Source: Thermofilum pendens Hrk 5
Lineage (GTDB): Archaea > Thermoproteota > Thermoprotei > Thermofilales > Thermofilaceae
DNA: 32,000 nucleotides
Direction of reading: 5' to 3'
Assembly (NCBI RefSeq): GCF_000015225.1
Contig: NC_008698.1
Span: 600,001 to 632,000, forward strand
This document shows, piece after piece, positions 6,632-26,571 of the stretch. The position numbers were made by a program, and so were the translations under genes. The notes under the pieces are model-generated. The model was not told the DNA's origin. It made no database searches and was given only the letters and a program-made list of their open reading frames with translations. Every line of letters starts with the position of its first letter. The first letter of the stretch is position 1.

Positions 6632-8746
6632 GTGCCGTCGCAGAAAGCCTTGGCAGTATATGCAATGCTAATAGTGTATGTCTTGGTTAGCTTGTATGCT
6701 AACTGTGTGTTAGCGTTGCAAGTACAGGGCACGCCGGTGGCGAGCTTTGCCAATGCTTCTGGAGTGAACGTGACAGTTATCATTGTGGGGTATAACGGTG
6801 AGGATCTTTCTCAACACCTAGTTGATGCGTGGAAACTTAACATTGGGAATCTAACCAAAACATGTCCAAGTGTGAGGTGCACGATAAACCTAACCAGTTA
6901 TGGGGTATACAACGTCACAATAGAGTACCTAAAAGTCCTAGTGTTCAAGAGCCCAGTCAACATTAGTAACTCTACCACTATAAAACTTAGAGTGAACATA
7001 ACAAAGGTCGAAGTAAAACTCTATACCAACGACACGATGCCTCTCCAACTGGACAACTTTTCGGGCTACTTCGACGTAAATGGATTTCAGGTACCGTTTG
7101 ATAAGAACACACCGGTTTATCTGCCCTTTGGAACCTTTAGGTACTTTGTCTCCTTCTCAAACATTAACAGGACAGGCTCCTTCACGGTTGATGGTAGGAG
7201 TACGCGGCTAGATATAGTGCTACCCATCATTAGCAGTGCTGAGATAGTATTTAGGACTCTTGACAATGAAAGCCCGGAAGGATTTAACGCCTCGCTAACA
7301 CTGCGCTACGGGGAGAGAATCGTTCTTAAAGAAGGACCTCCTCTCAGAGATAAGTACTCGCTTTCCTACCCGCTTGCAGGTCTATACCACTTGAGGGTGG
7401 ACTATAGGGGACAAACTGTGTACGAGGGCGACTTCACTATCGACAAGAATAATCGAAGGGTGGAGTTGAAGATTGGAGTTTTTAGGCGCGTAGAGATTCG
7501 GGTGCTCACGGCCGACAATAGGCCGCTGTACTCTGACGACATTTCCTTCGAGGTCGTATCCCCGCTTAACGATAGGATGAAGGTCACTCCGAACCAGGAC
7601 GGCTACTTTAGCTTGGAGTTTTGCCCCTACAACTGGAGGTATACCTTACGGGTGAAAAGCAATACTCTGGGGGAAGTTTTCACGTACGATTTCTATGTGA
7701 AGTCCCCCTCTGTGGAGGTGCAGACAGAGCTCGTATCAACTTATCTTAGGGTCTCTCCGGGAGGATCTGCTAAACTGCCCGGAAACCTCTCCGTGACACT
7801 CTACTACATTTCTAGCTCGCCTATAGTCGTAAAGGTGGTATCGCTTTCACGCGTCGTCGACCAGGTAAACGAGCCAGTGGGCTTCCTGCCGATCAGGGGT
7901 AGGTACAGGGTGGTTGTCGAGTACGCGGGTTACAGGTGGACAACGGATTTCGACAGCGTGGCTCACGGAATTCTAGTGGTTACTGTGCCATTATTCGATG
8001 TTAGAATCTCGGCTGTCGACCTCGATGGCAACCCGCTCTACGGATGCATTGTTGCTTTACGCGTAGGGCAACCCTCACGGCTAGTTTTCCGAGACCAGTT
8101 GCGCAATGGGCAGGCATTCTTCAGCTTTGTTCCAAGCGACTACGGGTCCCTCTCCGTTAACTGCTCCGGTCTCGAAGTACTATCTGCGAGCATTCTTCCC
8201 AAAGAAATTGAAGCCGGTAGCATCAACGTCACGGCACGCGTTAAGACATTCCTGGTCACGGTGAAGGGGTGGTTTAACCGCGCGCTAACAGGGGCGAACG
8301 TCACCCTCGAGGTGAAATACAAGGGAACGGTTCTAACCTTCTCTACGACCACGGACTCCACTGGGACAGCGGTTCTTAGAAACGTGCCTCTACCCCTTGG
8401 AAGCAACGTTACCCTCACGGTGAGCTACGGAGGCTTCAGCGAGGTGAGAAACGTCTATGAGGGATCACCTCGCCAGGAGGTATTCCTCGACGTCTTCCTG
8501 GATACCCCCTTCCTAAAGGCGGGTCTCTACCAAACGGTGCTTCTTCTAGCGACTATAGTCTTCGTAGCCGCAGCATCCTTCGTTGTAGCGCGTAGAGTTG
8601 CACGCATAGCTACGTTCAGGTCGATGTTCGAGGAAGGGGGCTACTTCGAAGAAGAAAAGGAGGGCTTCTTGGAGAGGTTAAAGAAACTCTTCGGGAAGAA
8701 GGAGGAGAAAGAGGAGGAAGAGGAGAGCCTGGATATATTTGTGTAG
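6632..8746 (+). CDS. Type I membrane surface glycoprotein with tandem beta-sandwich (CarboxypepD_reg-like) repeats
   Basis: N-terminal signal-like hydrophobic segment (ALAVYAMLIVYVLVSLYANCVLA). 18 N-x-S/T sequons by eye. Repeated segments resemble VTLEVKYKGTVLTFSTTTDSTGTAVLRNVPLPLGSNVTLTVSYGGF. C-terminal TM LLLATIVFVAAASFVVA is followed by RRVAR and a K/E-rich cytoplasmic tail. Confidence 0.75.
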   Translation: MPSQKALAVYAMLIVYVLVSLYANCVLALQVQGTPVASFANASGVNVTVIIVGYNGEDLSQHLVDAWKLNIGNLTKTCPSVRCTINLTSYGVYNVTIEYLKVLVFKSPVNISNSTTIKLRVNITKVEVKLYTNDTMPLQLDNFSGYFDVNGFQVPFDKNTPVYLPFGTFRYFVSFSNINRTGSFTVDGRSTRLDIVLPIISSAEIVFRTLDNESPEGFNASLTLRYGERIVLKEGPPLRDKYSLSYPLAGLYHLRVDYRGQTVYEGDFTIDKNNRRVELKIGVFRRVEIRVLTADNRPLYSDDISFEVVSPLNDRMKVTPNQDGYFSLEFCPYNWRYTLRVKSNTLGEVFTYDFYVKSPSVEVQTELVSTYLRVSPGGSAKLPGNLSVTLYYISSSPIVVKVVSLSRVVDQVNEPVGFLPIRGRYRVVVEYAGYRWTTDFDSVAHGILVVTVPLFDVRISAVDLDGNPLYGCIVALRVGQPSRLVFRDQLRNGQAFFSFVPSDYGSLSVNCSGLEVLSASILPKEIEAGSINVTARVKTFLVTVKGWFNRALTGANVTLEVKYKGTVLTFSTTTDSTGTAVLRNVPLPLGSNVTLTVSYGGFSEVRNVYEGSPRQEVFLDVFLDTPFLKAGLYQTVLLLATIVFVAAASFVVARRVARIATFRSMFEEGGYFEEEKEGFLERLKKLFGKKEEKEEEEESLDIFV

Positions 8747-12341: not shown

Positions 12342-12484
12342 GGGGCCGTAGTCCAGCCTGGTAGGATGCCTGGCACGAGGCAAAAACTCGCAGGACTTGG
12401 GATCTCGAAGACAAGAGCCCAGGTGGAGCCCGGGAAAACCCCCCGGGCGCCGAATCCCGGGTTCAAATCCCGGCGGCCCCACCA
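12342..12484 (+). tRNA. tRNA-Pro(UGG) with three introns (12375-12396, 12402-12417, 12427-12454)
   Basis: 143-nt span. Acceptor GGGGCCG/CGGCCCC, U8 A9, D arm GTCC-AGCCTGGTA-GGAT, anticodon stem CCTGG/CCAGG (12369-12373/12419-12423), T arm CCGGG-TTCAAAT-CCCGG, A73 and an encoded CCA. Removing the three introns leaves loop C-U-UGG-G-C and variable loop TGGTC, giving 77 nt with CCA. Introns 1 and 2 have perfect 4-bp central helices flanked by 3-nt bulges. Intron 3 has a 7-bp inner helix and a weaker central helix. Confidence 0.75.
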
Positions 12485-19503: not shown

Positions 19504-19716
19504 TTAGCCGCCGGGTTTCAGCGTGAAGTAAGCACGAGTAGCATTCGTAGTTTTCGCCGTTGGCTGAAGGGGCTGTGAGCCTGTCTTTTGAAGTTCTCCC
19601 ATAGGGGAGAGCTCGAGGGTGGGGGTCTCGGCTGGGATGCTCCGGGGGGCTGTCAGGAGCGATGATAGTAGCAATATTGCCACCAGTAATAGGAACCCGT
19701 AGAGAACTTTATCCAT
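19504..19716 (-). CDS. Small secreted or membrane-anchored protein (70 aa), last gene of the minus-strand trio
   Basis: N-terminus MDKVLYGFLLLVAILLLSSLL, then a P/T-rich tail with one sequon (NAT). The ATG overlaps the upstream stop (ATGGATAA) and is preceded by GGTGAT. Confidence 0.5.
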   Translation of the reverse strand: MDKVLYGFLLLVAILLLSSLLTAPRSIPAETPTLELSPMGELQKTGSQPLQPTAKTTNATRAYFTLKPGG

Positions 19717-20809
19717 GGATTATCACCAGGTTTCTACCGGCGGATAGCCCTGCCAGCGCCGCGAGCGCCGCGGCTGGTAGCCATAGGGGGAGGAGTAACG
19801 GTGTGCCGAAGGAGAGCGCCGAGATGCCTCCCGAGTACGCCATGCATGCGAACAGCAGGTAGGCGAGGAACCACTGCTCCAACCCTCTTACATCGGCTGG
19901 GACGCCGACGCTCTGCAGTAGCTCGACCCGTGCGATGCTCTCGAGAAGCTGTGAGATGAGGCTGGAGGCGAACCCGAGGAGAAAGAGACCTACCAGGTTT
20001 GTCAGCCCATTCAAGAGTGCTCGTGCTTGGAGCGAGTGGAGGATGCGGAGGATCTTCTCGTAGGTATTCTTCAGTCCGAGCATCGCTTCTCGGTCCGTTC
20101 CCCAGTAAGCGGATAGGAAGAGGCTTAGCCTGACGCTCGGAGTAAGGTTGCTCACGAACTTTCCTGCGAGGAGTTTCTCTGGCTTCACGGTTTTAAAGGC
20201 GTGGAACGGGGCAGAGGCCACCCGGACGAGTAGCTCTAGGTTCTCGCGTAGCTCCCGCTGAACCCTTGTCACTAGTGTGAAGTTATAAAGAAAACCGGGC
20301 AGGGAAAACGCTGCGAGCGCGGCGAGCACCAACGCTGGGGGGAGGCTTAGAAGGGCTAGCGAGGCGAAGGGTAAGGCGGCGAGTATTACCTGGATAGGAC
20401 CGACTTTGAGGGCTCTTAGCTCTCTGGGGTACACCGAGCTATAAGTGAATATTATTACGGCGTTAAGGGTCATGAGCGCAAGGGTTAGGGGCGCTACCAT
20501 TCTTGGGTTGAAGAGAGCCAGGGAGTACAGCATTAGAGGCGCGCTGAGGAGTGTTATGGAGAAGATCTCTGCCAGCGACTCGGACTTCCTGCTGAAAGTC
20601 TCCAGCTTCGTCTCCAGCCTTGACACTTTCTCGCCGAGAATGGTTCGCAGCGCGTGACGTGAACCGCTCTCCTCATCGCTACGCGCAGCTTCTAGAAGGC
20701 TTCTCGAGGCCTTGTACGAGTAGCCGTGCTCCTCGAGCCACTTGAAGACGTGGGAAGGCGGCGCCTCCGTGTAGGAGAGAAGGAGAAGTAGCTCCAAGTC
20801 TTCGAGCAA
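19709..20809 (-). CDS. Polytopic membrane protein, possibly TadC/FlaJ/GspF (T2SS-F)-like platform protein
   Basis: 366 aa. Two roughly 80-100-aa helical soluble segments, each followed by clusters of TM helices, which is the duplicated architecture of T2SSF proteins. TTG start is preceded by GGGGTG. The family assignment is by architecture only and is not motif-proven. Confidence 0.6.
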   Translation of the reverse strand: MLEDLELLLLLSYTEAPPSHVFKWLEEHGYSYKASRSLLEAARSDEESGSRHALRTILGEKVSRLETKLETFSRKSESLAEIFSITLLSAPLMLYSLALFNPRMVAPLTLALMTLNAVIIFTYSSVYPRELRALKVGPIQVILAALPFASLALLSLPPALVLAALAAFSLPGFLYNFTLVTRVQRELRENLELLVRVASAPFHAFKTVKPEKLLAGKFVSNLTPSVRLSLFLSAYWGTDREAMLGLKNTYEKILRILHSLQARALLNGLTNLVGLFLLGFASSLISQLLESIARVELLQSVGVPADVRGLEQWFLAYLLFACMAYSGGISALSFGTPLLLPLWLPAAALAALAGLSAGRNLVIIHG

Positions 20810-20826
20810 AAAGAAACACCCCTATT

Positions 20827-21201
20827 TTAAGATCTTAGGAGTGTGACCTTTATTGCCCCGTACTTCGTCTCGATGATAGCGGTCTTCGCGGAGGTAGGAG
20901 CGGACGTTAGAGTCAGTGCAGAGGTGCACTTAGCCACGTCCCCGTTCCTCAGTAGTGCAGGAGTGCAAGTCAGCTGAGCAGGGCCCGCGTTAAGGTCGGG
21001 GATAGTTATGTTAGCACCGGTAAGGTCGGCGGGCGTGCTCCCTATGTTCTGGAGGTACACTATCACCTGGTAAGAGGTCCCAGACCCTGTGAGGAGTGCG
21101 TCGCCCGCCTGAACCAGTACAGGCCTGTTGGTCGCGCCGCTCGCAACACTGTAGAGGAAGTAGCCTATCAGTGCGACGACCGATAGTGTGACGATTAACA
21201 T
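20827..21201 (-). CDS. Archaeal type IV pilin-like protein (N-terminal hydrophobic helix plus beta-rich domain)
   Basis: MLIVTLSVVALIGYFLY is followed by QVIVYLQNIGSTPADLTGANITIPD. This V-x-L-x-N-x-G...DL...I-x-I pattern is common in archaeal pilin-like (DUF1628-type) proteins. No basic pre-sequence in the annotated frame (see finding on 21199-21238). Confidence 0.65.
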   Translation of the reverse strand: MLIVTLSVVALIGYFLYSVASGATNRPVLVQAGDALLTGSGTSYQVIVYLQNIGSTPADLTGANITIPDLNAGPAQLTCTPALLRNGDVAKCTSALTLTSAPTSAKTAIIETKYGAIKVTLLRS

Positions 21202-21205
21202 GATG

Positions 21206-21225
21206 CTTCTTCCGACTTCTTCGGA
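21206..21225. repeat. Imperfect 10-nt tandem duplication in the 5' leader of the pilin-like gene
   Basis: Plus strand CTTCTTCCGA (21206-21215) and CTTCTTCGGA (21216-21225), 9/10 identical. It also folds as hairpin TCCGA-N5-TCGGA. Confidence 0.9.
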
Positions 21226-21256
21226 CGTTTTCTCTCACCTCGCTTGATCTTTACGG

Positions 21257-21268
21257 CAGTTTTTAACG
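21257..21268 (-). promoter_or_regulatory. TATA-like box for the minus-strand trio
   Basis: Minus strand reads CGTTAAAAACTG. With TATA at about -26, the predicted TSS is about 21237, coinciding with GTG 21238. Confidence 0.45.
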
Positions 21269-21296
21269 TGGGAACCGGAGCGCCCCTCCCATTCCG

Positions 21297-21307
21297 GGTT
21301 TAATAGC
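21297..21307 (+). promoter_or_regulatory. TATA-like box for the plus-strand 7-gene operon
   Basis: GGTTTAATAGC is centred about 21-26 nt upstream of GTG 21323, implying a leaderless first cistron. Confidence 0.45.
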
Positions 21308-21322
21308 GCTGAGACCTAGAGG

Positions 21323-21577
21323 GTGGTGAGCGTTGTGAGGTTCTTCGTGCTCGTTGCTTTAGCGTCGCTCCTCGTCTCTGCTCGTCTAACAGGGGAGCAT
21401 GCCACAACGCACGCCGGGACCTGCTTCTGCCTCGCCGAGGTACAACGAGGAGCCAGGGTAAAGCCTCTAAGCAATAACTGTCCGATGGTACTCCTCGTGG
21501 AGTTCGAGCCTGCTTCCGGCGGCTCTACGGAGAGGCTCGTTCTCTGCGATGGTTACGTGAAGATAGGGGAGGGGTGA
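21323..21577 (+). CDS. Small secreted or anchored Cys-containing protein (84 aa), first gene of the plus operon
   Basis: N-terminus VVRFFVLVALASLLVSA is signal- or anchor-like, with 4 Cys. There is a 7-nt gap to the next gene. Confidence 0.5.
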   Translation: MVSVVRFFVLVALASLLVSARLTGEHATTHAGTCFCLAEVQRGARVKPLSNNCPMVLLVEFEPASGGSTERLVLCDGYVKIGEG

Positions 21578-21584
21578 AAAGGTT

Positions 21585-24500
21585 TTGAAGTCGAGGGTAG
21601 GAGCTTTTCTACTGGTACTCGCCGTTACCGCGCAGAGCGTGACTGTAGCGGCACCGGGCCCCGCCGCGATCCAGCTAGCTATAGGCTTCGTTAGGGCGCC
21701 GAGCGATTCCTGGCCTCTTTGGAGCAGGACTATCTTCACGCCTTACCTCTTGTTCGTACCCAGCAGCGCGTATGTGGATAACGTCGTCGTGGGAATGGGC
21801 AGTAACTACGACTACTTCCTGGCGGGAAACGATAGCGTATCCTTTAACGTGCAGTACGACGGAGCGGTCAAGCTGAGGGGGTCGCTGAGCTTTGTTGCGA
21901 ACATTACCGTTAGCTACGGCGGTAGGAACGTGACCGTAACTCTACCCTCCTCCGGTAGCGCGAAGCTAAATCTTCCGCCTGGGGAGCTGGTCACGATTCT
22001 TGCACCCTCCGTGGTCAACGCAAGGTACAGCTTCCAGTACACCGACGTGGGGATAAGCGTGAAGATAAGCGGGGCTCGAAAGGTCTTCGTGACGACATTG
22101 AGGCCTTTCATCGGAGTCTACAACTTCTCGATGCGCTACGTAGCCGGCGTTTACTGCTCTTCCTACCCCGTGGAGATCCTCGCGTGTAGAACCACGGACT
22201 ATGCAAGCTGCAAAGCCCTATACCGAGGAGAGATCAAGCCTCAGGGCTGGTGGTACGGCTACATCCTTCAACCAGTACAGTTGCTCAACTTCTCGCTGAA
22301 CAACGAGTACCTCGGTCTAAGCATCACGTTCTGTAGCCCCGAGAAGAACTACGTCCCTATACCCGCTTGGATCTCCAGCTACGTGAACCTTCCACTATTC
22401 TTCTCGCACTGGCTCCTGCCGAACGGGACCCGGGTGTACTCAACGAGGCTAGTACTTCGAGCAAATGGCGCGGTGAGCCTCCGAGCCGTCTACCGCCCTC
22501 TACCGGCCATTCTAGCCGTCAAAGCAGACAGGGATGTGGCGCCGGCCCTCAAGGGCTCTCTCTCCCTCCAGTTGCCGGGAGCAACTGCGGCTCCGGCGGA
22601 GGCCCTGCTGGGGTCAGCGTTGATTACGGATCCGAGGCTTGAAGGATGGGGTGTGGAGTGGGGGTACCCCGACGCTTACCCCAGGCAACCGCCCTGGCAC
22701 TATGCGGACGAGTACACGGCCGTGAGGCGGGGTGTCGTCTACGCTTTCTCCACGATCTCCTACAGGCTCTACGCTGAGGAGAGCCTCAGGAGGTACTACA
22801 GGTGGAGCGCATTAGATTATCGCTTCTCGATAGACCCGAACTACTATCGAGGTGGTGTTTTGTACGACTCCAGGTACCCGTTCGTTCTGCTCGGAGAAGC
22901 TATAGGGAGCCCGCCCGCCTCCAACGGGAAGATCAACGTGTCAGTGACCGGTATACGTGTTGACGCGGGCTTCTTGGGGTACTTCGTTTCCGGTACACTG
23001 GAGGTTTACAGGGTTCCCTTGAAGGAGAGCCTTAGAAGCCTCGGCGTACCGCTGTTCAACGGGAGTCTCTCTGCCGCGCTGGGCACGCTCAATGCACTTC
23101 TCAGGAACGGCACGCTGGGTGAGGAGGATCTCGTCGCCGTATACCGTGCCGACCGCGCGGACACTCCGATCGTGGTCGCAAACGCTAGGCTGGCGGCAGA
23201 GAAACTCGTAGAGCTAACGTCCGTGTACGAAATATGGCCTGGGACACGCGTATCCGTGTACAGAGTAAACCTGTCACGCGCAGAGCTCGTCTACAAGGAA
23301 AGCCTCAGGAACCTAGGCATACATCGGGACGGCGACGTCGGTCGTCCCGCTGTCATAAGCAACGTGGGGGAAGGCAGGCTCTGGGTCATCCTGAGAGTCC
23401 GCCTCTACGGCTATCCCGAGATGGCATTTTTCTCGGCCTCGTTCAGCGTCTCAGTTAGCAACTTCACGGACTACAAATTCAGGGGGTGGAAAGTGTACCG
23501 GGCGACGTTCGAGCCGCGCCCCGACTGGATCGACTCCTGGGGGTTCAGACCGACAACTCTACTCTTTGAGACTGCTAACCCTCTCGAGGGCTTAGTGAGC
23601 CCCGGGGAGGTCGTGTTGGCTGTAGCCGAATACGGAGCTCTTACAAGGGCTACGTCGAACATTCTCAAAGTTCCCGTTGGCGTAGACCTGGCACCCTTTG
23701 ACTCTGCTGGCTTCACTGGGCTCGCAAAGGGGCTTTACTCCTTTTACACAAATGCAACAGTCTACGGGCTATCGAGTGAAGGTGTCCTCGTCAAGCTTGA
23801 AGACGCGCGAGGAACTCTGAGAGTCAACGAGGACTACGCTAAGGCAAGGAAGGTGAAGCCGCGCGATACGGAAAGCGTGAGCAGGTTGCCTTTGCTCGTG
23901 TTACCCAACGGAACCGCCGTCAGGGTTTTCTCAATAGAGGCTTCGAGAAAACCATCCATCAACGTCTTGGAGCTAAACTCCACTGTTTACCTTTTCGAAG
24001 TCGTAGAGCCCAGCTTGAGCATCTCGCGTATTGAGTACAACGAGACCCACGTGAAGATAGCCTTCCAGGTGGAACCCCCGTGGAGCGGCATGAGGGTCTC
24101 CGCTTTCTTAGGAGGCAGGCTTGTCGCAGAAGTGCCGGCGAGCCTTGGCTCAATATCCCTGCCCTACGAAGCGTTCCAGGAGGAGCTGAGCGCGGAGAAC
24201 CTGACGCTACTACTCACGTGGGGCGGCTCGCTCTCCGCTGGACACAAAGCCGTAAGCCTGGCAGTCCTGAGAGCTATACCGCACGTGAGGTTTACCGTAA
24301 TCAACGGCTCCTGGAAGGCTTTCTGGGTCTCGACGTACACAGTCGACAAAGGAGGCGTTGTGAAGAAGCTCGAGGAAGCTCTCTTAGAGAGAGGGCTAAG
24401 ACCCGTTGGAGGAAGGCTCTACCTAGAGGTAGCCGGGTGCGGCTCGAAATTCCCGGCCTTGTGGAGAGCCTTCCTCGAGCCTGGCCACAGCGTAGCGGTG

Positions 24501-24596
24501 CCTGCATACGACACAACCAGGTACTGCCTCTACGTGTACTTCATCCCGGAGGGTAACACGGGGGTGGTGGTCGCGCCATGGGAAGAAAGGCTCTAG
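21585..24596 (+). CDS. Large secreted glycoprotein (1003 aa), no recognisable domain
   Basis: Sec-type signal MKSRVGAFLLVLAVTAQS. 17 N-x-S/T sequons by eye, Y/V/S-rich, no C-terminal TM. TTG start is preceded by the strong SD GGGGAGGGGTGA. Confidence 0.8.
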   Translation: MKSRVGAFLLVLAVTAQSVTVAAPGPAAIQLAIGFVRAPSDSWPLWSRTIFTPYLLFVPSSAYVDNVVVGMGSNYDYFLAGNDSVSFNVQYDGAVKLRGSLSFVANITVSYGGRNVTVTLPSSGSAKLNLPPGELVTILAPSVVNARYSFQYTDVGISVKISGARKVFVTTLRPFIGVYNFSMRYVAGVYCSSYPVEILACRTTDYASCKALYRGEIKPQGWWYGYILQPVQLLNFSLNNEYLGLSITFCSPEKNYVPIPAWISSYVNLPLFFSHWLLPNGTRVYSTRLVLRANGAVSLRAVYRPLPAILAVKADRDVAPALKGSLSLQLPGATAAPAEALLGSALITDPRLEGWGVEWGYPDAYPRQPPWHYADEYTAVRRGVVYAFSTISYRLYAEESLRRYYRWSALDYRFSIDPNYYRGGVLYDSRYPFVLLGEAIGSPPASNGKINVSVTGIRVDAGFLGYFVSGTLEVYRVPLKESLRSLGVPLFNGSLSAALGTLNALLRNGTLGEEDLVAVYRADRADTPIVVANARLAAEKLVELTSVYEIWPGTRVSVYRVNLSRAELVYKESLRNLGIHRDGDVGRPAVISNVGEGRLWVILRVRLYGYPEMAFFSASFSVSVSNFTDYKFRGWKVYRATFEPRPDWIDSWGFRPTTLLFETANPLEGLVSPGEVVLAVAEYGALTRATSNILKVPVGVDLAPFDSAGFTGLAKGLYSFYTNATVYGLSSEGVLVKLEDARGTLRVNEDYAKARKVKPRDTESVSRLPLLVLPNGTAVRVFSIEASRKPSINVLELNSTVYLFEVVEPSLSISRIEYNETHVKIAFQVEPPWSGMRVSAFLGGRLVAEVPASLGSISLPYEAFQEELSAENLTLLLTWGGSLSAGHKAVSLAVLRAIPHVRFTVINGSWKAFWVSTYTVDKGGVVKKLEEALLERGLRPVGGRLYLEVAGCGSKFPALWRAFLEPGHSVAVPAYDTTRYCLYVYFIPEGNTGVVVAPWEERL

Positions 24597-25138
24597 GATC
24601 CGTTACCGCGACGCTACTATTGCTACTGCTCTCAACAATAACAGTCCTCCTCGCATACCCAGCGCTCCTGGGCTCCCGCGGAGTAGCGAGGGAAAGGCTA
24701 GACACGCGAACCCTGCTTCGCCTGTTGCATGACTTGGAAAACGGGGGCATCGTAGAGCTACCAGTCGAGGCAAAGCTTCTCGGAAACGCGTCGTTCATAG
24801 CAATTAACGGGAAGGTTGCATACGCGTTCAACTCTGCAGTGATCGTTTTCCCTCAGTGCGAAAGTGCACCTTTGAGCGGTCAACTCTTCAAGGTAGTGCG
24901 GGAGGGCTCCTCCTGTACTGTAGTGTTCAGGCCCTACCTGAACCTGTCTGCCGGCGAAGTAGTAGCGGTGGCGGCTTACGGCTCAGGGCTTTACAGCAGG
25001 CTAAACTCCACCAGTGTTCTCCGCTTTTTCCGGGGCTTCGTAGACGAGCTCGTCATCGGGCAGGAGAGCTACGCTGTCGCCGCGCCTTTGAAGCTTAAGG
25101 TTAAAGTGATAGAGGTGAGGGGTGTTGAGGGCGGTTGA
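24578..25138 (+). CDS. Pilin-like protein (186 aa)
   Basis: MGRKALGSVTATLLLLLLSTITVLLAY has a short basic leader, K-A followed by a long hydrophobic helix. Three sequons. The ATG overlaps the upstream gene by 19 nt and is preceded by GGGGGTGGTGG. Confidence 0.7.
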   Translation: MGRKALGSVTATLLLLLLSTITVLLAYPALLGSRGVARERLDTRTLLRLLHDLENGGIVELPVEAKLLGNASFIAINGKVAYAFNSAVIVFPQCESAPLSGQLFKVVREGSSCTVVFRPYLNLSAGEVVAVAAYGSGLYSRLNSTSVLRFFRGFVDELVIGQESYAVAAPLKLKVKVIEVRGVEGG

Positions 25139-25385
25139 GGAGTCTATCTTCACGTTCTTCGAGCTCCTTCTCCTCGTAGGCATCTTGACGTACGCCTCCG
25201 CTACTGCTCCCGGAGAGAACTCCCTCGCGCTGGTATACGGGATAAGCCAGGCGCTACCGGAAGGCTCCTGCGCCGTTATAATGTCCGCGAGCCCCCTAAG
25301 TCTTGGGAACGCGACGCTCGGAAAAAGTGTCGCTGTCTGCAAGGTGGGGAACGAGACGGTGGTGAAGCCGTGGCCAGAGGGGTAG
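25122..25385 (+). CDS. Pilin-like protein (87 aa)
   Basis: MLRAVEESIFTFFELLLLVGILTYA has a 4-residue leader ending R-A, then a hydrophobic helix. The FTFFE segment resembles the bacterial FTLIE prepilin core. GTG start is preceded by AGAGGTGAG, with a 17-nt overlap. Confidence 0.6.
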   Translation: MLRAVEESIFTFFELLLLVGILTYASATAPGENSLALVYGISQALPEGSCAVIMSASPLSLGNATLGKSVAVCKVGNETVVKPWPEG

Positions 25386-25651
25386 TGGCGGCGCTCATAG
25401 CGACCATAGTCCTCTTCACCGCGGTGTCTGTGTACACACGGTACTACGGCTCCCCTATCTACGCCGTAAAGGTACAGAGAAACCTCGCCGTGATAGCAGC
25501 ATACGTGATGCTACACTCGAATTGCACCGACGTTGGATACTACCTTTCAAAGGTGAACTCTACTCAACCCCTGCCGGGCCAGACTACGTCCTGGGTTGTT
25601 ACCTGGTGCAACGGGACGCCTGTTGTGAGGGGGTTCTCGTGGTCTCCTTGA
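25370..25651 (+). CDS. Pilin-like protein (93 aa), best class III signal match
   Basis: MARG|VVAALIATIVLFTAVSVY has R-G followed by V-V and a hydrophobic stretch resembling the archaeal pilin core G-x-SPVIATxLLI. GTG start is preceded by GGTGGTGA, with a 16-nt overlap. Confidence 0.65.
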   Translation: MARGVVAALIATIVLFTAVSVYTRYYGSPIYAVKVQRNLAVIAAYVMLHSNCTDVGYYLSKVNSTQPLPGQTTSWVVTWCNGTPVVRGFSWSP

Positions 25652-26214
25652 AGAGGCGCCGCGCAGCTATAGGTCTTCTCGCAGTAGCCCTACTAAGCTT
25701 AGCTGTTCTGCAAAATTCGAGGTCGAGTAGCGAGGTGAGGGTGTTGTACTACGGTGAGAACGTCTACATGGCTTACCTCGCGGCCGCCAGAGAAGCTTGC
25801 GCATCGAACATGAGCGTCGAGGAGCTTGTAGACGGGTTGAGCGACTACTTCGGCCCGTTAAGGCTAGCAGATACGCGCGTTGCACGCTTCGAGCGCTCAG
25901 ACAAACTTTCCGGAGTAAAGTACTGCAATGTCACCGTTACAACTAAACTCGGCGCGCGCGCTAGCTTCGAGCTGAACTACACGTACACATTTCTGGGCTT
26001 CTTCGCGGAGACCGGAACAGGGAGAATAGTCAAGGTGTACCGAATAAACGCTTACCAGCGTTTTAAGATCCCCGAGTACCGTTACGCCATACTACTCCAG
26101 GTGGACTTAGTGCCTACTTGCGAGAGCATCACCTACAATGGGACGCTGGAAGTGCGGATAGACACTCCCTGCGTCTTGAGGGACAAGTGGGGCTTTACGC
26201 TTACGGTGCCCTAG
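25639..26214 (+). CDS. Pilin-like protein (about 190 aa)
   Basis: I place the start at GTG 25639 (SD GAGGGGGT upstream) or TTG 25648 (TTGA overlap with the upstream stop). The track start at 25522 would lie inside the upstream gene. N-terminus is VSLKRRRA|AIGLLAVALLSLAVL. Confidence 0.65.
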   Translation: MVSLKRRRAAIGLLAVALLSLAVLQNSRSSSEVRVLYYGENVYMAYLAAAREACASNMSVEELVDGLSDYFGPLRLADTRVARFERSDKLSGVKYCNVTVTTKLGARASFELNYTYTFLGFFAETGTGRIVKVYRINAYQRFKIPEYRYAILLQVDLVPTCESITYNGTLEVRIDTPCVLRDKWGFTLTVP

Positions 26215-26571
26215 ATGGAGCTGGAGGAAGCGGTTCTCTCGGTGCTTCTGCTTTCCGCCTCATTCCTTATCTACACCTACTGGCTCCAGCTAGCCAATAC
26301 TTGGAGCGGCGACGCGGCGTCTTTAATCAGGGATGTCTGCGCAGTGTCGCTGTCCCCGCCGGGCACGAGCATGGAGGGGGTCTACGACGTCGATGTGTGC
26401 GTTTCAGGCAATGTTATCGCAACCCGTTACCCCGTGTACTCGTACTGCTTTCCGAGGATTAACGAAACCGCGATAAAAGCCCCAGTGAAGTCTGACGAGC
26501 GTTGCTTCTCTGGAAGGATAAGACTGAAGATCACTAAGGCTGGTAACGTGGTTACTCTGGAGAGGGGCTAG
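26215..26571 (+). CDS. Pilin-like or N-terminally anchored protein (118 aa), last gene of the operon
   Basis: MELEEAVLSVLLLSASFLIYTYWL (E-A-V-L then a hydrophobic stretch), with 4 Cys and one sequon. The ATG directly abuts the upstream TAG. Confidence 0.6.
   Translation: MELEEAVLSVLLLSASFLIYTYWLQLANTWSGDAASLIRDVCAVSLSPPGTSMEGVYDVDVCVSGNVIATRYPVYSYCFPRINETAIKAPVKSDERCFSGRIRLKITKAGNVVTLERG

What the first reader, a model, noticed from the sequence alone, without database searches (positions are those of the whole stretch)
19504..26571. Divergent 3+7-gene locus encoding only membrane or secreted proteins: candidate orphan type IV pilus-like surface-appendage module
Ten consecutive genes radiate from one 120-bp divergent promoter region (21202-21322). 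None has an enzymatic motif I can recognise. All start with a hydrophobic N-terminal segment or are polytopic. Minus arm: a pilin-like 124-aa protein, a 366-aa polytopic protein with the duplicated soluble-helical-plus-TM architecture of TadC/FlaJ/GspF platform proteins, and a 70-aa secreted peptide. Plus arm: an 84-aa anchored protein, a 1003-aa secreted glycoprotein, and five small pilin-like proteins. Cistrons overlap by 4-19 nt or abut, and each internal start has a GGTG-type SD, which argues for real, stoichiometrically co-expressed genes. The window contains no PilB/FlaI/TadA-type secretion ATPase and no PibD/FlaK-type prepilin peptidase. In established archaeal type IV pilus loci the ATPase and platform genes are adjacent. 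The locus is therefore either a satellite pilin, adhesin and platform set that borrows an ATPase encoded elsewhere, or a different kind of envelope assembly. Alternatives include an S-layer-associated complex or a cannula- or fibre-like structure in a Pyrodictiaceae-like organism. Either way it is a coherent uncharacterised system embedded among housekeeping genes.
Basis: partly seen in the sequence, partly recalled or inferred. Interest (0 to 1): 0.85.

Follow-up and report, generated by a model that had tools for sequence, protein, structure and literature searches.

The report
ATPase-less archaeal type IV pilus module
This stretch of the Thermofilum pendens chromosome encodes the membrane and surface parts (a pilin, a very diverged assembly-platform protein, five minor-pilin-like proteins and a large secreted glycoprotein) of a lineage-specific type IV pilus-like machine whose motor ATPase is encoded elsewhere; it is an uncharacterised variant of a kind of system already catalogued in this group of archaea.

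Summary
The ten genes are real, at the stated coordinates, and conserved in order in related Thermofilaceae. The window is Thermofilum pendens (about Tpen_0669-0677), not a Pyrodictiaceae or Desulfurococcales organism.

- **Platform.** The 366-aa protein passes no curated family threshold. It gives reproducible, in-register weak matches to the crenarchaeal pilus platform models UpsF and BasF, and shuffled controls give none. In four of five distant lineages its homologue lies in an operon of ParA-like ATPase, small coiled-coil protein, T2SSE (FlaI/VirB11-type) ATPase, pilin and platform.
- **Pilins.** The 124-aa protein belongs to that pilin family. Four to five small plus-arm proteins have class III-type N-termini.
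- **Sec substrates.** The 1003-aa and 84-aa proteins have ordinary Sec signal peptides.
- **ATPase.** No secretion ATPase lies within about 29 kb upstream or 15 kb downstream.

Best reading: a type IV pilus-like module split from its ParA-ATPase unit. The plus arm resembles the bacterial minor-pilin/PilY1 tip set. Makarova et al. 2016 reported ATPase-less pilin loci in Thermofilum and linked them tentatively to a Thermofilum-specific ATPase. This is a variant of a known kind, not a new system. The structural test against T2SSF was inconclusive.

The parts
19504..19716 (-). 70-aa single-pass membrane protein, the last gene of the minus arm. Its N-terminus MDKxLY[GA] followed by a hydrophobic helix is conserved.
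   Evidence: It overlaps the 366-aa gene by 8 nt. Orthologues of 45-62 aa follow the platform gene in L003, L004, L012 and L013.
19709..20809 (-). 366-aa polytopic, all-helical membrane protein: a very diverged TadC/FlaJ/UpsF-like assembly platform (ABL78071, inferred Tpen_0669).
   Evidence: It gives weak matches to UpsF (2.6e-4). The family consensus matches UpsF at 3.6e-5 and BasF at 5e-4, and controls are negative. Homologues lie next to a T2SSE ATPase. The AF2 model has pLDDT 91.4, about 7 TM helices and two cytoplasmic helical modules.
20827..21201 (-). 124-aa pilin with an N-terminal helix and a beta-rich domain (ABL78072). The coding sequence may extend upstream to about 21228.
   Evidence: A homologue pairs with the platform gene in all nine homologous loci fetched; it directly precedes the platform in eight (in L009 the homologue is the first gene of the cluster). 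The family consensus gives Pilin_N (0.006) and Arch_flagellin (0.014) as the top Pfam hits. Distant homologues start with RRG|A or KRGG|VPPIVT. The conserved SEEVGRS peptide is encoded upstream without a canonical start.
21202..21322 (.). 121-bp divergent intergenic region with two A/T-rich TATA-like boxes: TTAAAAA on the minus strand at 21267-21261, and GTTTAATAG on the plus strand at 21298-21306.
   Evidence: Read directly from the sequence. Promoter function is inferred, not tested.
21323..21577 (+). Small secreted protein with four cysteines and a Sec-type signal peptide: 84 aa, or 80 aa from GTG 21335.
   Evidence: Uncalled orthologous ORFs in L003 (9192-9479) and L004 keep the C-x-C...CP...C pattern and an xDA|xT cleavage site. 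Gene callers give 80 aa.
21585..24596 (+). 1003-aa secreted glycoprotein (ABL78074) with a Sec-type signal peptide and no C-terminal anchor: candidate adhesin or tip protein.
   Evidence: It has 17 N-x-S/T sequons. The orthologue in L003 is 987 aa and about 30% identical over the whole length. It has no Pfam, NCBIfam or PDB sequence match. A short beta-repeat-like motif is shared with the 514-aa protein of locus L010, which contains the ATPase.
24578..25138 (+). 186-aa pilin-like protein starting MGRKA|LGSVTATLLLLLL.
   Evidence: It passes the class III-like rule. Orthologues in the L003, L015 and L016 lineage lack the charged pre-sequence, so this assignment is weaker.
25122..25385 (+). 87-aa pilin-like protein starting MLRAVEES|IFTFFELLLL.
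   Evidence: The N-terminus is conserved with L003 (MTVDEA|LFTFLEFLLL).
25370..25651 (+). 93-aa pilin-like protein with a classical class III N-terminus, MARG|VVAALIATIVLF (ABL78077, Tpen_0675, annotated as 88 aa).
   Evidence: Orthologues occur in L003, L015, L016, L007 and L017 with RG| or EA| sites.
25648..26214 (+). 188-aa pilin-like protein starting MKRRRA|AIGLLAVALLSLAV, with four cysteines.
   Evidence: KRKG|, RRRA| and RRRG| sites are conserved in three lineages. It is the best conserved of the small proteins (3.5e-23 to L007).
26215..26571 (+). 118-aa pilin-like protein starting MELEEA|VLSVLLLSASF, with four cysteines (ABL78079).
   Evidence: UniRef names it 'Class III signal peptide-containing protein'. 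Orthologues occur in L003 and L007.

Best explanation
The locus encodes the membrane and extracellular components of a Thermofilaceae-specific type IV pilus-like machine. It has become separated from its cytoplasmic motor unit.

**Minus arm**
- A pilin (124 aa).
- A very diverged TadC/FlaJ/UpsF-type platform (366 aa).
- A 70-aa single-pass protein.

**Plus arm**
- Two Sec-exported proteins: a small four-cysteine protein and a 1003-aa N-glycosylated protein.
- Five small proteins with pilin-type N-termini.

**Proposed working (inferred)**
1. The genome's single PibD/FlaK-type peptidase trims the class III N-termini.
2. The five minor pilins assemble on the platform as a priming or tip complex that carries the large glycoprotein. 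This parallels bacterial FimU-PilVWXE carrying PilY1.
3. The 124-aa pilin, or a stand-alone major pilin, polymerises beneath the tip.
4. Polymerisation is driven by a FlaI/VirB11-type ATPase. In relatives this ATPase is encoded directly upstream of the pilin-platform pair, together with a ParA/MinD-like ATPase and a small coiled-coil protein. In T. pendens it lies elsewhere in the genome.

**Shown:** gene content, conservation, N-terminal features, homology of the pilin-platform pair to pairs linked to an ATPase.
**Inferred:** processing, filament formation, tip complex, identity of the partner ATPase, adhesive function.
For: 1. **Genomic context.**
   - Homologues of the 366-aa protein follow ParA-like / small coiled-coil / T2SSE ATPase / pilin in L006, L009, L010 and L025.
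   - Those ATPases are 29-38% identical to each other.
   - In L013, a close relative, a ParA-X-ATPase operon lies 5 kb from the pilin-platform operon.
2. **Link through related loci.**
   - L025 reads ATPase-pilin-platform-'500-aa' protein.
   - L007 reads pilin-platform-'500-aa' protein, then homologues of the 93-, 188- and 118-aa proteins.
   - This ties the T. pendens small proteins to systems that contain the ATPase.
3. **Platform model matches.**
   - The UpsF model is the only or top NCBIfam hit for the window protein (2.6e-4), P0002 (1.4e-4), P0009 (1.7e-3) and P0010 (0.02).
   - All four align to the same register, UpsF positions 175-312.
   - The family consensus matches UpsF at 3.6e-5 and BasF at 5e-4.
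   - Reversed and locally shuffled controls give no such hit.
4. **Structure prediction.** The AF2 model is confident (pLDDT 91.4, pTM 0.87). It is all-helical with about 7 TM helices and two cytoplasmic helical modules.
5. **Pilin family.**
   - The top Pfam hits for the 124-aa family consensus are Pilin_N and Arch_flagellin.
   - Distant members carry canonical class III signals.
6. **Class III-type N-termini.**
   - The 93-, 188-, 118- and 87-aa proteins have them, conserved in orthologues.
   - The only one of 20 other window proteins that passes the same rule is another surface protein.
7. **Glycosylation signal.** N-glycosylation sequons are seven-fold enriched: 32 per 1953 aa against 15 per 6468 aa in cytoplasmic neighbours.
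8. **Literature (PMC4858521).**
   - T. pendens has three arCOG01817 ATPases, one arCOG02298 prepilin peptidase and no archaellum.
   - One ATPase is in a Thermofilum-specific clade and lies two GI numbers after a ParA-like gene.
   - ATPase-less pilin loci in Thermofilum are tentatively linked to that clade.
Against: - No protein reaches a curated Pfam or NCBIfam cut-off. The best platform score is 22.7 bits against a cut-off of 400.
- Foldseek of the confident model finds no PDB relative; the best E-value is 0.6.
- hhalign against four bacterial T2SSF proteins is not significant (P 0.004-0.03, probability 2-8%).
- The test for an internal duplication is not significant.
- No ATPase lies within about 29 kb upstream or 15 kb downstream.
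- The partner ATPase locus in T. pendens could not be inspected.
- The T. pendens 124-aa gene lacks a canonical start for its conserved pre-sequence.
- The class III site of the 186-aa protein is not conserved.
- There are no expression or surface-fraction data.
Confidence: 0.7

Rival explanations
1. The locus encodes a bindosome-like or pseudopilus-like assembly system rather than an extended pilus. The platform and small pilin-like proteins would build a short, envelope-embedded structure that holds the 1003-aa glycoprotein, or class III-signal substrate-binding proteins, at the cell surface. This would work like the Sulfolobus Bas system.
For: - The family consensus hits BasF (5e-4).
- The pilin family consensus hits BasC faintly (0.34).
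- There are several small pilin-like proteins and no obvious abundant major pilin apart from the 124-aa protein.
- From the genome literature, as I recall it and did not check here, T. pendens depends heavily on uptake systems.
Against: - The UpsF match is stronger than the BasF match.
- No substrate-binding protein genes are linked to the locus.
- The ancestral operon contains a pilin of a size typical of a major pilin.
- Sequence alone cannot separate this reading from an extended pilus.
Confidence: 0.15
2. The locus is a decaying or silent remnant. After losing its ATPase unit the module is no longer assembled, and the genes persist only transiently.
For: - There is no ATPase nearby.
- The start codon for the conserved pre-sequence of the 124-aa pilin is missing in T. 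pendens.
Against: - All ten reading frames are intact.
- They are conserved in order in L003, with the platform protein 43-44% identical to its orthologue there. L007 also lacks an adjacent ATPase, so the split state is old and maintained.
- Tight overlaps and SD-like motifs are kept.
Confidence: 0.07
3. The locus encodes a different envelope complex unrelated to type IV pili, such as an S-layer-associated or cannula-like structure. It would assemble through Sec alone, and the 366-aa protein would be a scaffold or transporter of another kind.
For: - Family membership of the 366-aa protein fails all curated thresholds.
- The fold search finds nothing.
- Two products are plain Sec substrates.
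Against: - The pilin-platform pair is linked to a T2SSE ATPase in four lineages.
- The UpsF and BasF matches are specific.
- The 1003-aa protein lacks the C-terminal TM helix and basic tail of the PySLP-type S-layer protein. That protein is reported in T. pendens as a different gene, A1RY64.
Confidence: 0.06

Closest known systems
Type IV pilus-like systems of Thermoproteales, subclades 4E and 4G, and the 'tentative 4E' loci of Thermofilum (Makarova, Koonin and Albers 2016, PMC4858521)
   Same: - Lineage-specific, fast-evolving sets of small predicted pilins with conserved cysteines plus large secreted proteins.
- A FleN/MinD-type ATPase and small alpha-helical cytoplasmic proteins beside the secretion ATPase.
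- Pilin loci without an ATPase that are linked in trans to a separate ATPase.
- Thermofilum is named explicitly.
   Different: - The paper says such loci lack both the ATPase and TadC. Here a cryptic TadC-like platform is present.
- I could not confirm that Tpen_0669-0677 is the locus they meant. The stored copy of Table S4 is cut before Thermofilum.
- No protein of the size of the signature arCOG05475 (463 aa in Caldivirga) is in this locus.
Sulfolobales Ups, Aap and Bas systems (UpsE/F, AapE/F, BasE/F with small pilins)
   Same: - The platform gives its only database matches to UpsF and BasF.
- Small pilins carry class III signals processed by PibD.
- The organisation is simple, around a pilin and a platform.
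   Different: - In those systems the ATPase and platform genes are adjacent. Here they are separated.
- Sequence similarity is marginal (about 20 bits).
- Those loci have no 1000-aa secreted protein and no five-gene minor-pilin set.
Bacterial type IVa pilus minor-pilin/PilY1 operon (fimU-pilVWXY1E) and T2SS minor pseudopilins (GspH-K)
   Same: - Works alike: one operon with four or five small pilin-like proteins and one Sec-exported protein of about 1000 aa.
- In bacteria these form the priming and tip complex.
- The 87-aa protein even carries an FTF[FL]E motif like bacterial FTLIE.
   Different: - No detectable sequence homology.
- This comparison rests on my knowledge of the bacterial system and on gene architecture only. 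It is not membership.
Tad/Flp pili (TadZ/CpaE ParA-like, TadA ATPase, TadB/TadC platform)
   Same: In relatives the operon begins with a ParA/MinD-like ATPase followed by the secretion ATPase and the platform.
   Different: - There is a single platform gene rather than a TadB/TadC pair.
- It has no match to the TadC models.
- The ParA-ATPase unit is absent from this locus.

Membership tests
T2SSF / TadC / FlaJ platform proteins (PF00482; NCBIfam UpsF, BasF, GspF) | Match to a family model at or above its curated cut-off | tested here: not met
   - Pfam gives nothing for the window protein. One of 25 family members hits T2SSF at E 0.054.
- NCBIfam UpsF scores 19.9-22.7 bits against a cut-off of 400.
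- The hits are specific and in register, and controls are negative.
T2SSF / TadC / FlaJ platform proteins | Gene adjacent to a T2SSE (PilB/FlaI/VirB11-type) ATPase | tested here: not met
   - Not met for the window gene: no ATPase within about 29 kb upstream or 15 kb downstream.
- Met for homologues in L006, L009, L010 and L025, and nearly met in L013 at 5 kb.
T2SSF / TadC / FlaJ platform proteins | Polytopic protein with repeated cytoplasmic helical module plus TM helices | tested here: inconclusive
   - The AF2 model (pLDDT 91) shows two similar runs of three short helices, one long helix and TM helices, with about 7 TM segments.
- hhalign of the N-half against the C-half aligns them in register, but at P = 0.068.
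T2SSF / TadC / FlaJ platform proteins | Structural similarity to solved T2SSF domains | tested here: inconclusive
   - Foldseek against the PDB gives a best E-value of 0.6 and no T2SSF chain among the 50 matches listed.
- The PDB holds only cytoplasmic domains of about 115 aa and one integrative model.
Archaeal type IV pilins (class III signal peptide; Pilin_N / Arch_flagellin) | Short charged N-region, [KRDE][GAS] site, then a hydrophobic helix of about 20 residues | tested here: met
   - Met and conserved in orthologues for the 93-, 188-, 118- and 87-aa proteins.
- Met in T. pendens only for the 186-aa protein.
- Met in orthologues (GRS|, RRG|, KRGG|) but not in the annotated T. pendens start of the 124-aa protein.
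- This is my own simple rule, not FlaFind.
Archaeal type IV pilins | Match to Pilin_N (PF07790) or Arch_flagellin (PF01917) above the cut-off | tested here: not met
   - The 124-aa family consensus scores 17.8 bits on Pilin_N (cut-off 25.2) and 16.1 bits on Arch_flagellin (cut-off 29.5).
- These are the top two Pfam hits but lie below threshold.
- The other small proteins give no hits.
Archaeal type IV pilins | Cleavage by PibD/FlaK and incorporation into a filament | not testable with these tools
   This needs biochemistry or mass spectrometry of sheared filaments.
Thermofilum 'tentative subclade 4E' locus of Makarova et al. 2016 | Presence of the signature minor pilin arCOG05475 (and arCOG10502) | not testable with these tools
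   - arCOG assignments for T. pendens proteins are not in the stored supplement.
- No Caldivirga, Vulcanisaeta or Pyrobaculum relative was retrieved by the genome scan with the '500-aa' family.
PySLP-type S-layer protein | C-terminal transmembrane helix with basic tail; tandem Ig-like domains | tested here: not met
   - The 1003-aa protein ends ...GVVVAPWEERL with no TM segment.
- The T. pendens PySLP homologue is reported as a different protein, A1RY64.

The most novel reading that the evidence does not exclude
The 366-aa family may not be a TadC/FlaJ homologue at all. It could be an independent membrane scaffold that has taken the platform position next to FlaI-type ATPases in Thermofilaceae. 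In T. pendens it would then work without a dedicated adjacent ATPase to build a new kind of surface structure from Sec- and class III-exported parts.
Probability: 0.1. Interest if true: 0.65.

Novelty: new variant of a known kind. Interest (0 to 1): 0.4.

Why it matters
- **Census sensitivity.** The platform protein of an archaeal type IV pilus-like system can diverge beyond every current profile and can be uncoupled from its ATPase. Censuses that seed on ATPase/TadC pairs therefore undercount or mis-split such systems.
- **Parallel with bacterial tip complexes.** The plus arm offers a candidate archaeal counterpart of the bacterial minor-pilin/PilY1 tip complex. This could be tested by co-folding and by cryo-EM of Thermofilum filaments.
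- **Annotation.** About ten 'hypothetical' genes of T. pendens and their Thermofilaceae relatives gain a functional context.
- **Limits.** This does not open a new category of biology. Extreme diversity of these systems in Thermoproteales is already documented.

Tried and rejected
- **Direct family scans.** Pfam and NCBIfam scans of all ten proteins gave nothing above threshold.
- **PDB sequence searches.** Searches with the platform profiles and the 1003-aa protein found nothing relevant.
- **First AF2 run.** An 8-sequence alignment gave a poor model (pLDDT 51). A 25-sequence alignment fixed it.
- **hhalign tests.**
  - Against HofC, two GspF and one other T2SSF protein fetched from E. coli and plasmids, the result was not significant.
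  - The internal-repeat test was also not significant.
- **Consensus scans.** Consensus sequences of the whole family or of the distant subgroup gave no T2SSF hit. Only the close-group consensus did.
- **Further homology searches.** Searches with P0012 and with the A2 profile did not reach T. pendens paralogues or annotated T2SSF proteins.
- **Genome-collection scans.**
  - A1 found nothing, not even T. pendens.
  - The '500-aa' family found only Thermofilaceae or unnamed MAGs, so no bridge to arCOG05475 genomes.
- **Flank search.** A search for canonical T2SSF genes in the flanks of all fetched loci found none.
- **GI mapping.** I tried to map Makarova's GI numbers to Tpen locus tags. This was not possible from the stored tables.
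- **Literature.** No paper mentions Tpen_0669-0677.
- **Rejected readings.**
  - S-layer: the 1003-aa protein lacks a C-terminal anchor.
  - Cannula: nothing in the sequence, family or literature searches pointed that way; no CanA sequence was compared directly.
  - Pyrodictiaceae origin: the organism is T. pendens.

Full report
**1. Observation**

- The minus arm holds genes of 124, 366 and 70 aa.
- The plus arm holds genes of 84, 1003, 186, 87, 93, 188 and 118 aa.
- The 188-aa gene starts at 25648, as the gene callers say.
- Neighbouring genes overlap by 4-19 nt or abut.
- GGTG-type motifs precede the internal starts, and every product starts with a hydrophobic segment or is polytopic.

The flanks are housekeeping genes. 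On one side lie topoisomerase VI B and A and a small AsnC-domain gene. On the other lie a DRG/TGS GTPase and CDC48.

The window is Thermofilum pendens.
- The 366-aa protein is 100% identical to ABL78071 / WP_011752336.
- The 93-aa gene is annotated Tpen_0675.
- By consecutive accession numbers the locus is Tpen_0669-0677. This numbering is my inference.

**2. The genes are real and the set is conserved**

- A metagenomic relative (L003) has the whole set in the same order, between the same flanking genes. The platform protein is 43-44% identical to its L003 orthologue, and the 1003-aa protein is 24-38% identical per 100-residue window.
- The 84-aa and 70-aa genes were not called there. They are present as conserved ORFs with the same cysteine pattern and the same MDKxLY[GA] start.
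- A more distant Thermofilaceae MAG (L007/L008/L022) has pilin and platform, then proteins of 500, 709, 181 and 100 aa, then homologues of the 93-, 188- and 118-aa proteins.
- Chance ORFs are therefore excluded.

**3. The 366-aa protein**

*Family size and direct matches.*
- An exhaustive profile search of 1.84 billion representative proteins found only 24 relatives.
- Those with names come from Thermofilum or 'Thermoprotei archaeon' MAGs.
- No Pfam model matches.
- NCBIfam gives UpsF, the platform of the Sulfolobus UV-inducible pilus, as the single hit for the window protein (2.6e-4).
- UpsF is also the single hit for three other lineages (1.4e-4, 1.7e-3, 0.02), always residues about 53-190 against UpsF positions 175-312.
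- The consensus of the close group gives UpsF at 3.6e-5 and BasF at 5e-4.
- Among the 25 members, isolated weak hits to GspF, XpsF and Pfam T2SSF also appear.
- A reversed sequence and four locally shuffled versions of the consensus give no such hit.
- All scores are far below the curated cut-offs, so formal membership is not shown.

*Genomic context.* This is the stronger evidence.
- In L006, L009, L010 and L025 the homologue lies in the order ParA/MinD-like ATPase, small coiled-coil protein, T2SSE ATPase, pilin of 119-136 aa, platform (in L009 the pilin homologue comes first in the cluster and the platform directly follows the ATPase).
- In L013, a member of the close group, a ParA-X-ATPase operon lies 5 kb away. 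It is separated by what looks like an inserted PrimPol/HerA element.
- In L011, L003, L007 and T. pendens no ATPase is adjacent.

*Structure.*
- With the 25-sequence alignment AlphaFold2 gives a confident model (pLDDT 91.4, pTM 0.87).
- The model is all-helical with about seven hydrophobic helices. It has two similar cytoplasmic helical modules, at residues 1-78 and 186-265.
- Foldseek finds no PDB relative.
- The PDB contains only T2SSF cytoplasmic domains of about 115 aa and one integrative model.
- hhalign against four bacterial T2SSF proteins is not significant. Both halves of the query do map to the same HofC segment.
- The internal-repeat test gives an in-register alignment at P = 0.068.

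**4. The 124-aa protein**

- A homologue pairs with the platform gene in every homologous locus fetched, directly preceding it in all but L009.
- The family consensus has Pilin_N (0.006) and Arch_flagellin (0.014) as its two best Pfam hits. Both are below threshold.
- Distant members begin with canonical archaeal class III signals, RRG|A and KRGG|VPPIVT.
- In the close group the protein begins MSEEVGRS(I/L)M.
- T. pendens encodes SEEVGRSI in frame upstream of the annotated ATG. The orthologous start is ACG, and no ATG, GTG or TTG lies before the upstream stop. This is unexplained.

**5. The plus arm**

- The 84-aa and 1003-aa proteins have ordinary Sec signal peptides: VSA|R and VAA|P here, IDA|F and AYA|E in orthologues.
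- The 1003-aa protein has 17 sequons and no C-terminal anchor.
- It shows no internal repeats and no database match.
- It shares a short beta-repeat-like motif with the 514-aa protein next to the ATPase operon of L010.
- The 93- and 188-aa proteins have classical class III N-termini conserved in three lineages (RG|, RRRA|, KRKG|, RRRG|).
- The 118- and 87-aa proteins have acidic EA| or ES| versions, also conserved.
- The 186-aa protein has MGRKA| only in T. pendens.
- Under my simple rule, only one of 20 other window proteins passes, and it is itself a surface protein.
- Sequons are about seven-fold enriched relative to the cytoplasmic neighbours.

**6. The ATPase question**

- No T2SSE ATPase, ParA-like gene or A24 peptidase lies in the window or in 10 kb beyond either end.
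- According to Makarova et al. 2016 (PMC4858521), T. pendens Hrk 5 has three arCOG01817 ATPases (GI 119719356, 119719637, 119719717).
- It also has one arCOG02298 prepilin peptidase, three recognised TadC-family genes and no archaellum.
- GI 119719637 forms a long-branch clade specific to Thermofilum. It lies two GI numbers after a 237-aa ParA-like protein (GI 119719635).
- That is the same ParA-X-ATPase order seen in L006, L009, L010, L013 and L025. Adjacency is inferred from the GI numbering.
- The paper states that pilin loci lacking ATPase and TadC occur in two Thermofilum species. It tentatively links them to that ATPase clade.
- I could not verify that their locus is this one.

**7. Interpretation**

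The most economical reading is a single ancestral operon, preserved in L025 and others. Its order is ParA, coiled-coil protein, ATPase, pilin, platform, large pilin-like or secreted proteins, minor pilins.

In the T. pendens lineage this operon is split. The cytoplasmic ParA-X-ATPase unit is in one place. The membrane and extracellular parts are in this locus.

By architecture, the plus arm resembles the bacterial fimU-pilVWXY1E set, which forms a priming and tip complex. It has five small pilin-like genes and one Sec-exported glycoprotein of about 1000 aa. This is a functional analogy from general knowledge, not homology.

Rival readings are less likely but not excluded.
- A Bas-like pseudopilus.
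- A silent remnant.
- An unrelated envelope complex.

**8. Novelty**

The kind of system is known. Archaeal type IV pilus-like systems are known to be extremely diverse in Thermoproteales. ATPase-less pilin loci in Thermofilum have been mentioned in print.

What is added here:
- The recognition of a cryptic platform gene in such a locus.
- Its pairing with a pilin that is orthologous to pairs linked to an ATPase.
- The reconstruction of the split.

I rate this a new variant of a known kind, of moderate interest.

Noticed in passing
window 21201-21237 (minus strand): The conserved pre-sequence SEEVGRSI of the 124-aa pilin is encoded in frame upstream of the annotated ATG. The orthologous ATG is ACG (21228-21226) in T. 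pendens, and no canonical start precedes it. Either initiation is non-canonical or the pilin is made without its class III pre-sequence.
   Followed up: partly
window 6632-8746 (+): A 704-aa ORF has a class III-like N-terminus (MPSQKA|LAVYAMLIVYVLV), a CarboxypepD_reg domain, 18 N-glycosylation sequons and a C-terminal TM helix with a charged tail. It is distantly homologous (E 2e-15) to the 740-aa protein that lies divergently next to the pilin-platform pair in L011. It may be an S-layer-like partner of the system, 11 kb away.
   Followed up: partly
window 12342-12481 (+): Rfam detects a 140-nt tRNA, presumably containing an intron, that ARAGORN did not report.
   Followed up: no
window 25122-25385 (+); L003 5438-5686 (-): The 87-aa protein and its orthologues carry FTF[FL]E just after the predicted cleavage region. 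This resembles the FTLIE motif of bacterial type IV pilins, including the glutamate.
   Followed up: no
L013 2102-6560: A 932-aa PrimPol protein and a HerA/DUF87-like ATPase lie between the pilin-platform operon and a convergent ParA-X-T2SSE ATPase operon. They look like a mobile element inserted into a once more compact system.
   Followed up: no
window 21298-21337: A TATA-like GTTTAATAG at 21298-21306 lies only 17 nt before GTG 21323. The first plus-arm gene therefore more likely starts at GTG 21335 (80 aa) on a leaderless transcript, as the gene callers propose.
   Followed up: partly
window 22398-22560 (1003-aa protein residues about 272-325); L010 1572-3116 (-): A motif of about 55 aa (F.YW....G......L.L..N.....TAV) is shared between the 1003-aa protein family and the 514-aa protein beside the ATPase operon of L010. 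It occurs twice in the latter and looks like a small beta-repeat of surface proteins.
   Followed up: partly
L028 17211-19406 (about 7-9 kb upstream of the window start): An AglB/STT3 oligosaccharyltransferase and an OST3/6-like gene lie about 27 kb from the locus. They are relevant to N-glycosylation of its sequon-rich products, but the linkage is probably incidental.
   Followed up: no
Genome-contig collection: A scan with patterns derived from the T. pendens protein itself returned no relative. The source genome therefore appears to be absent or masked in that collection.
   Followed up: no
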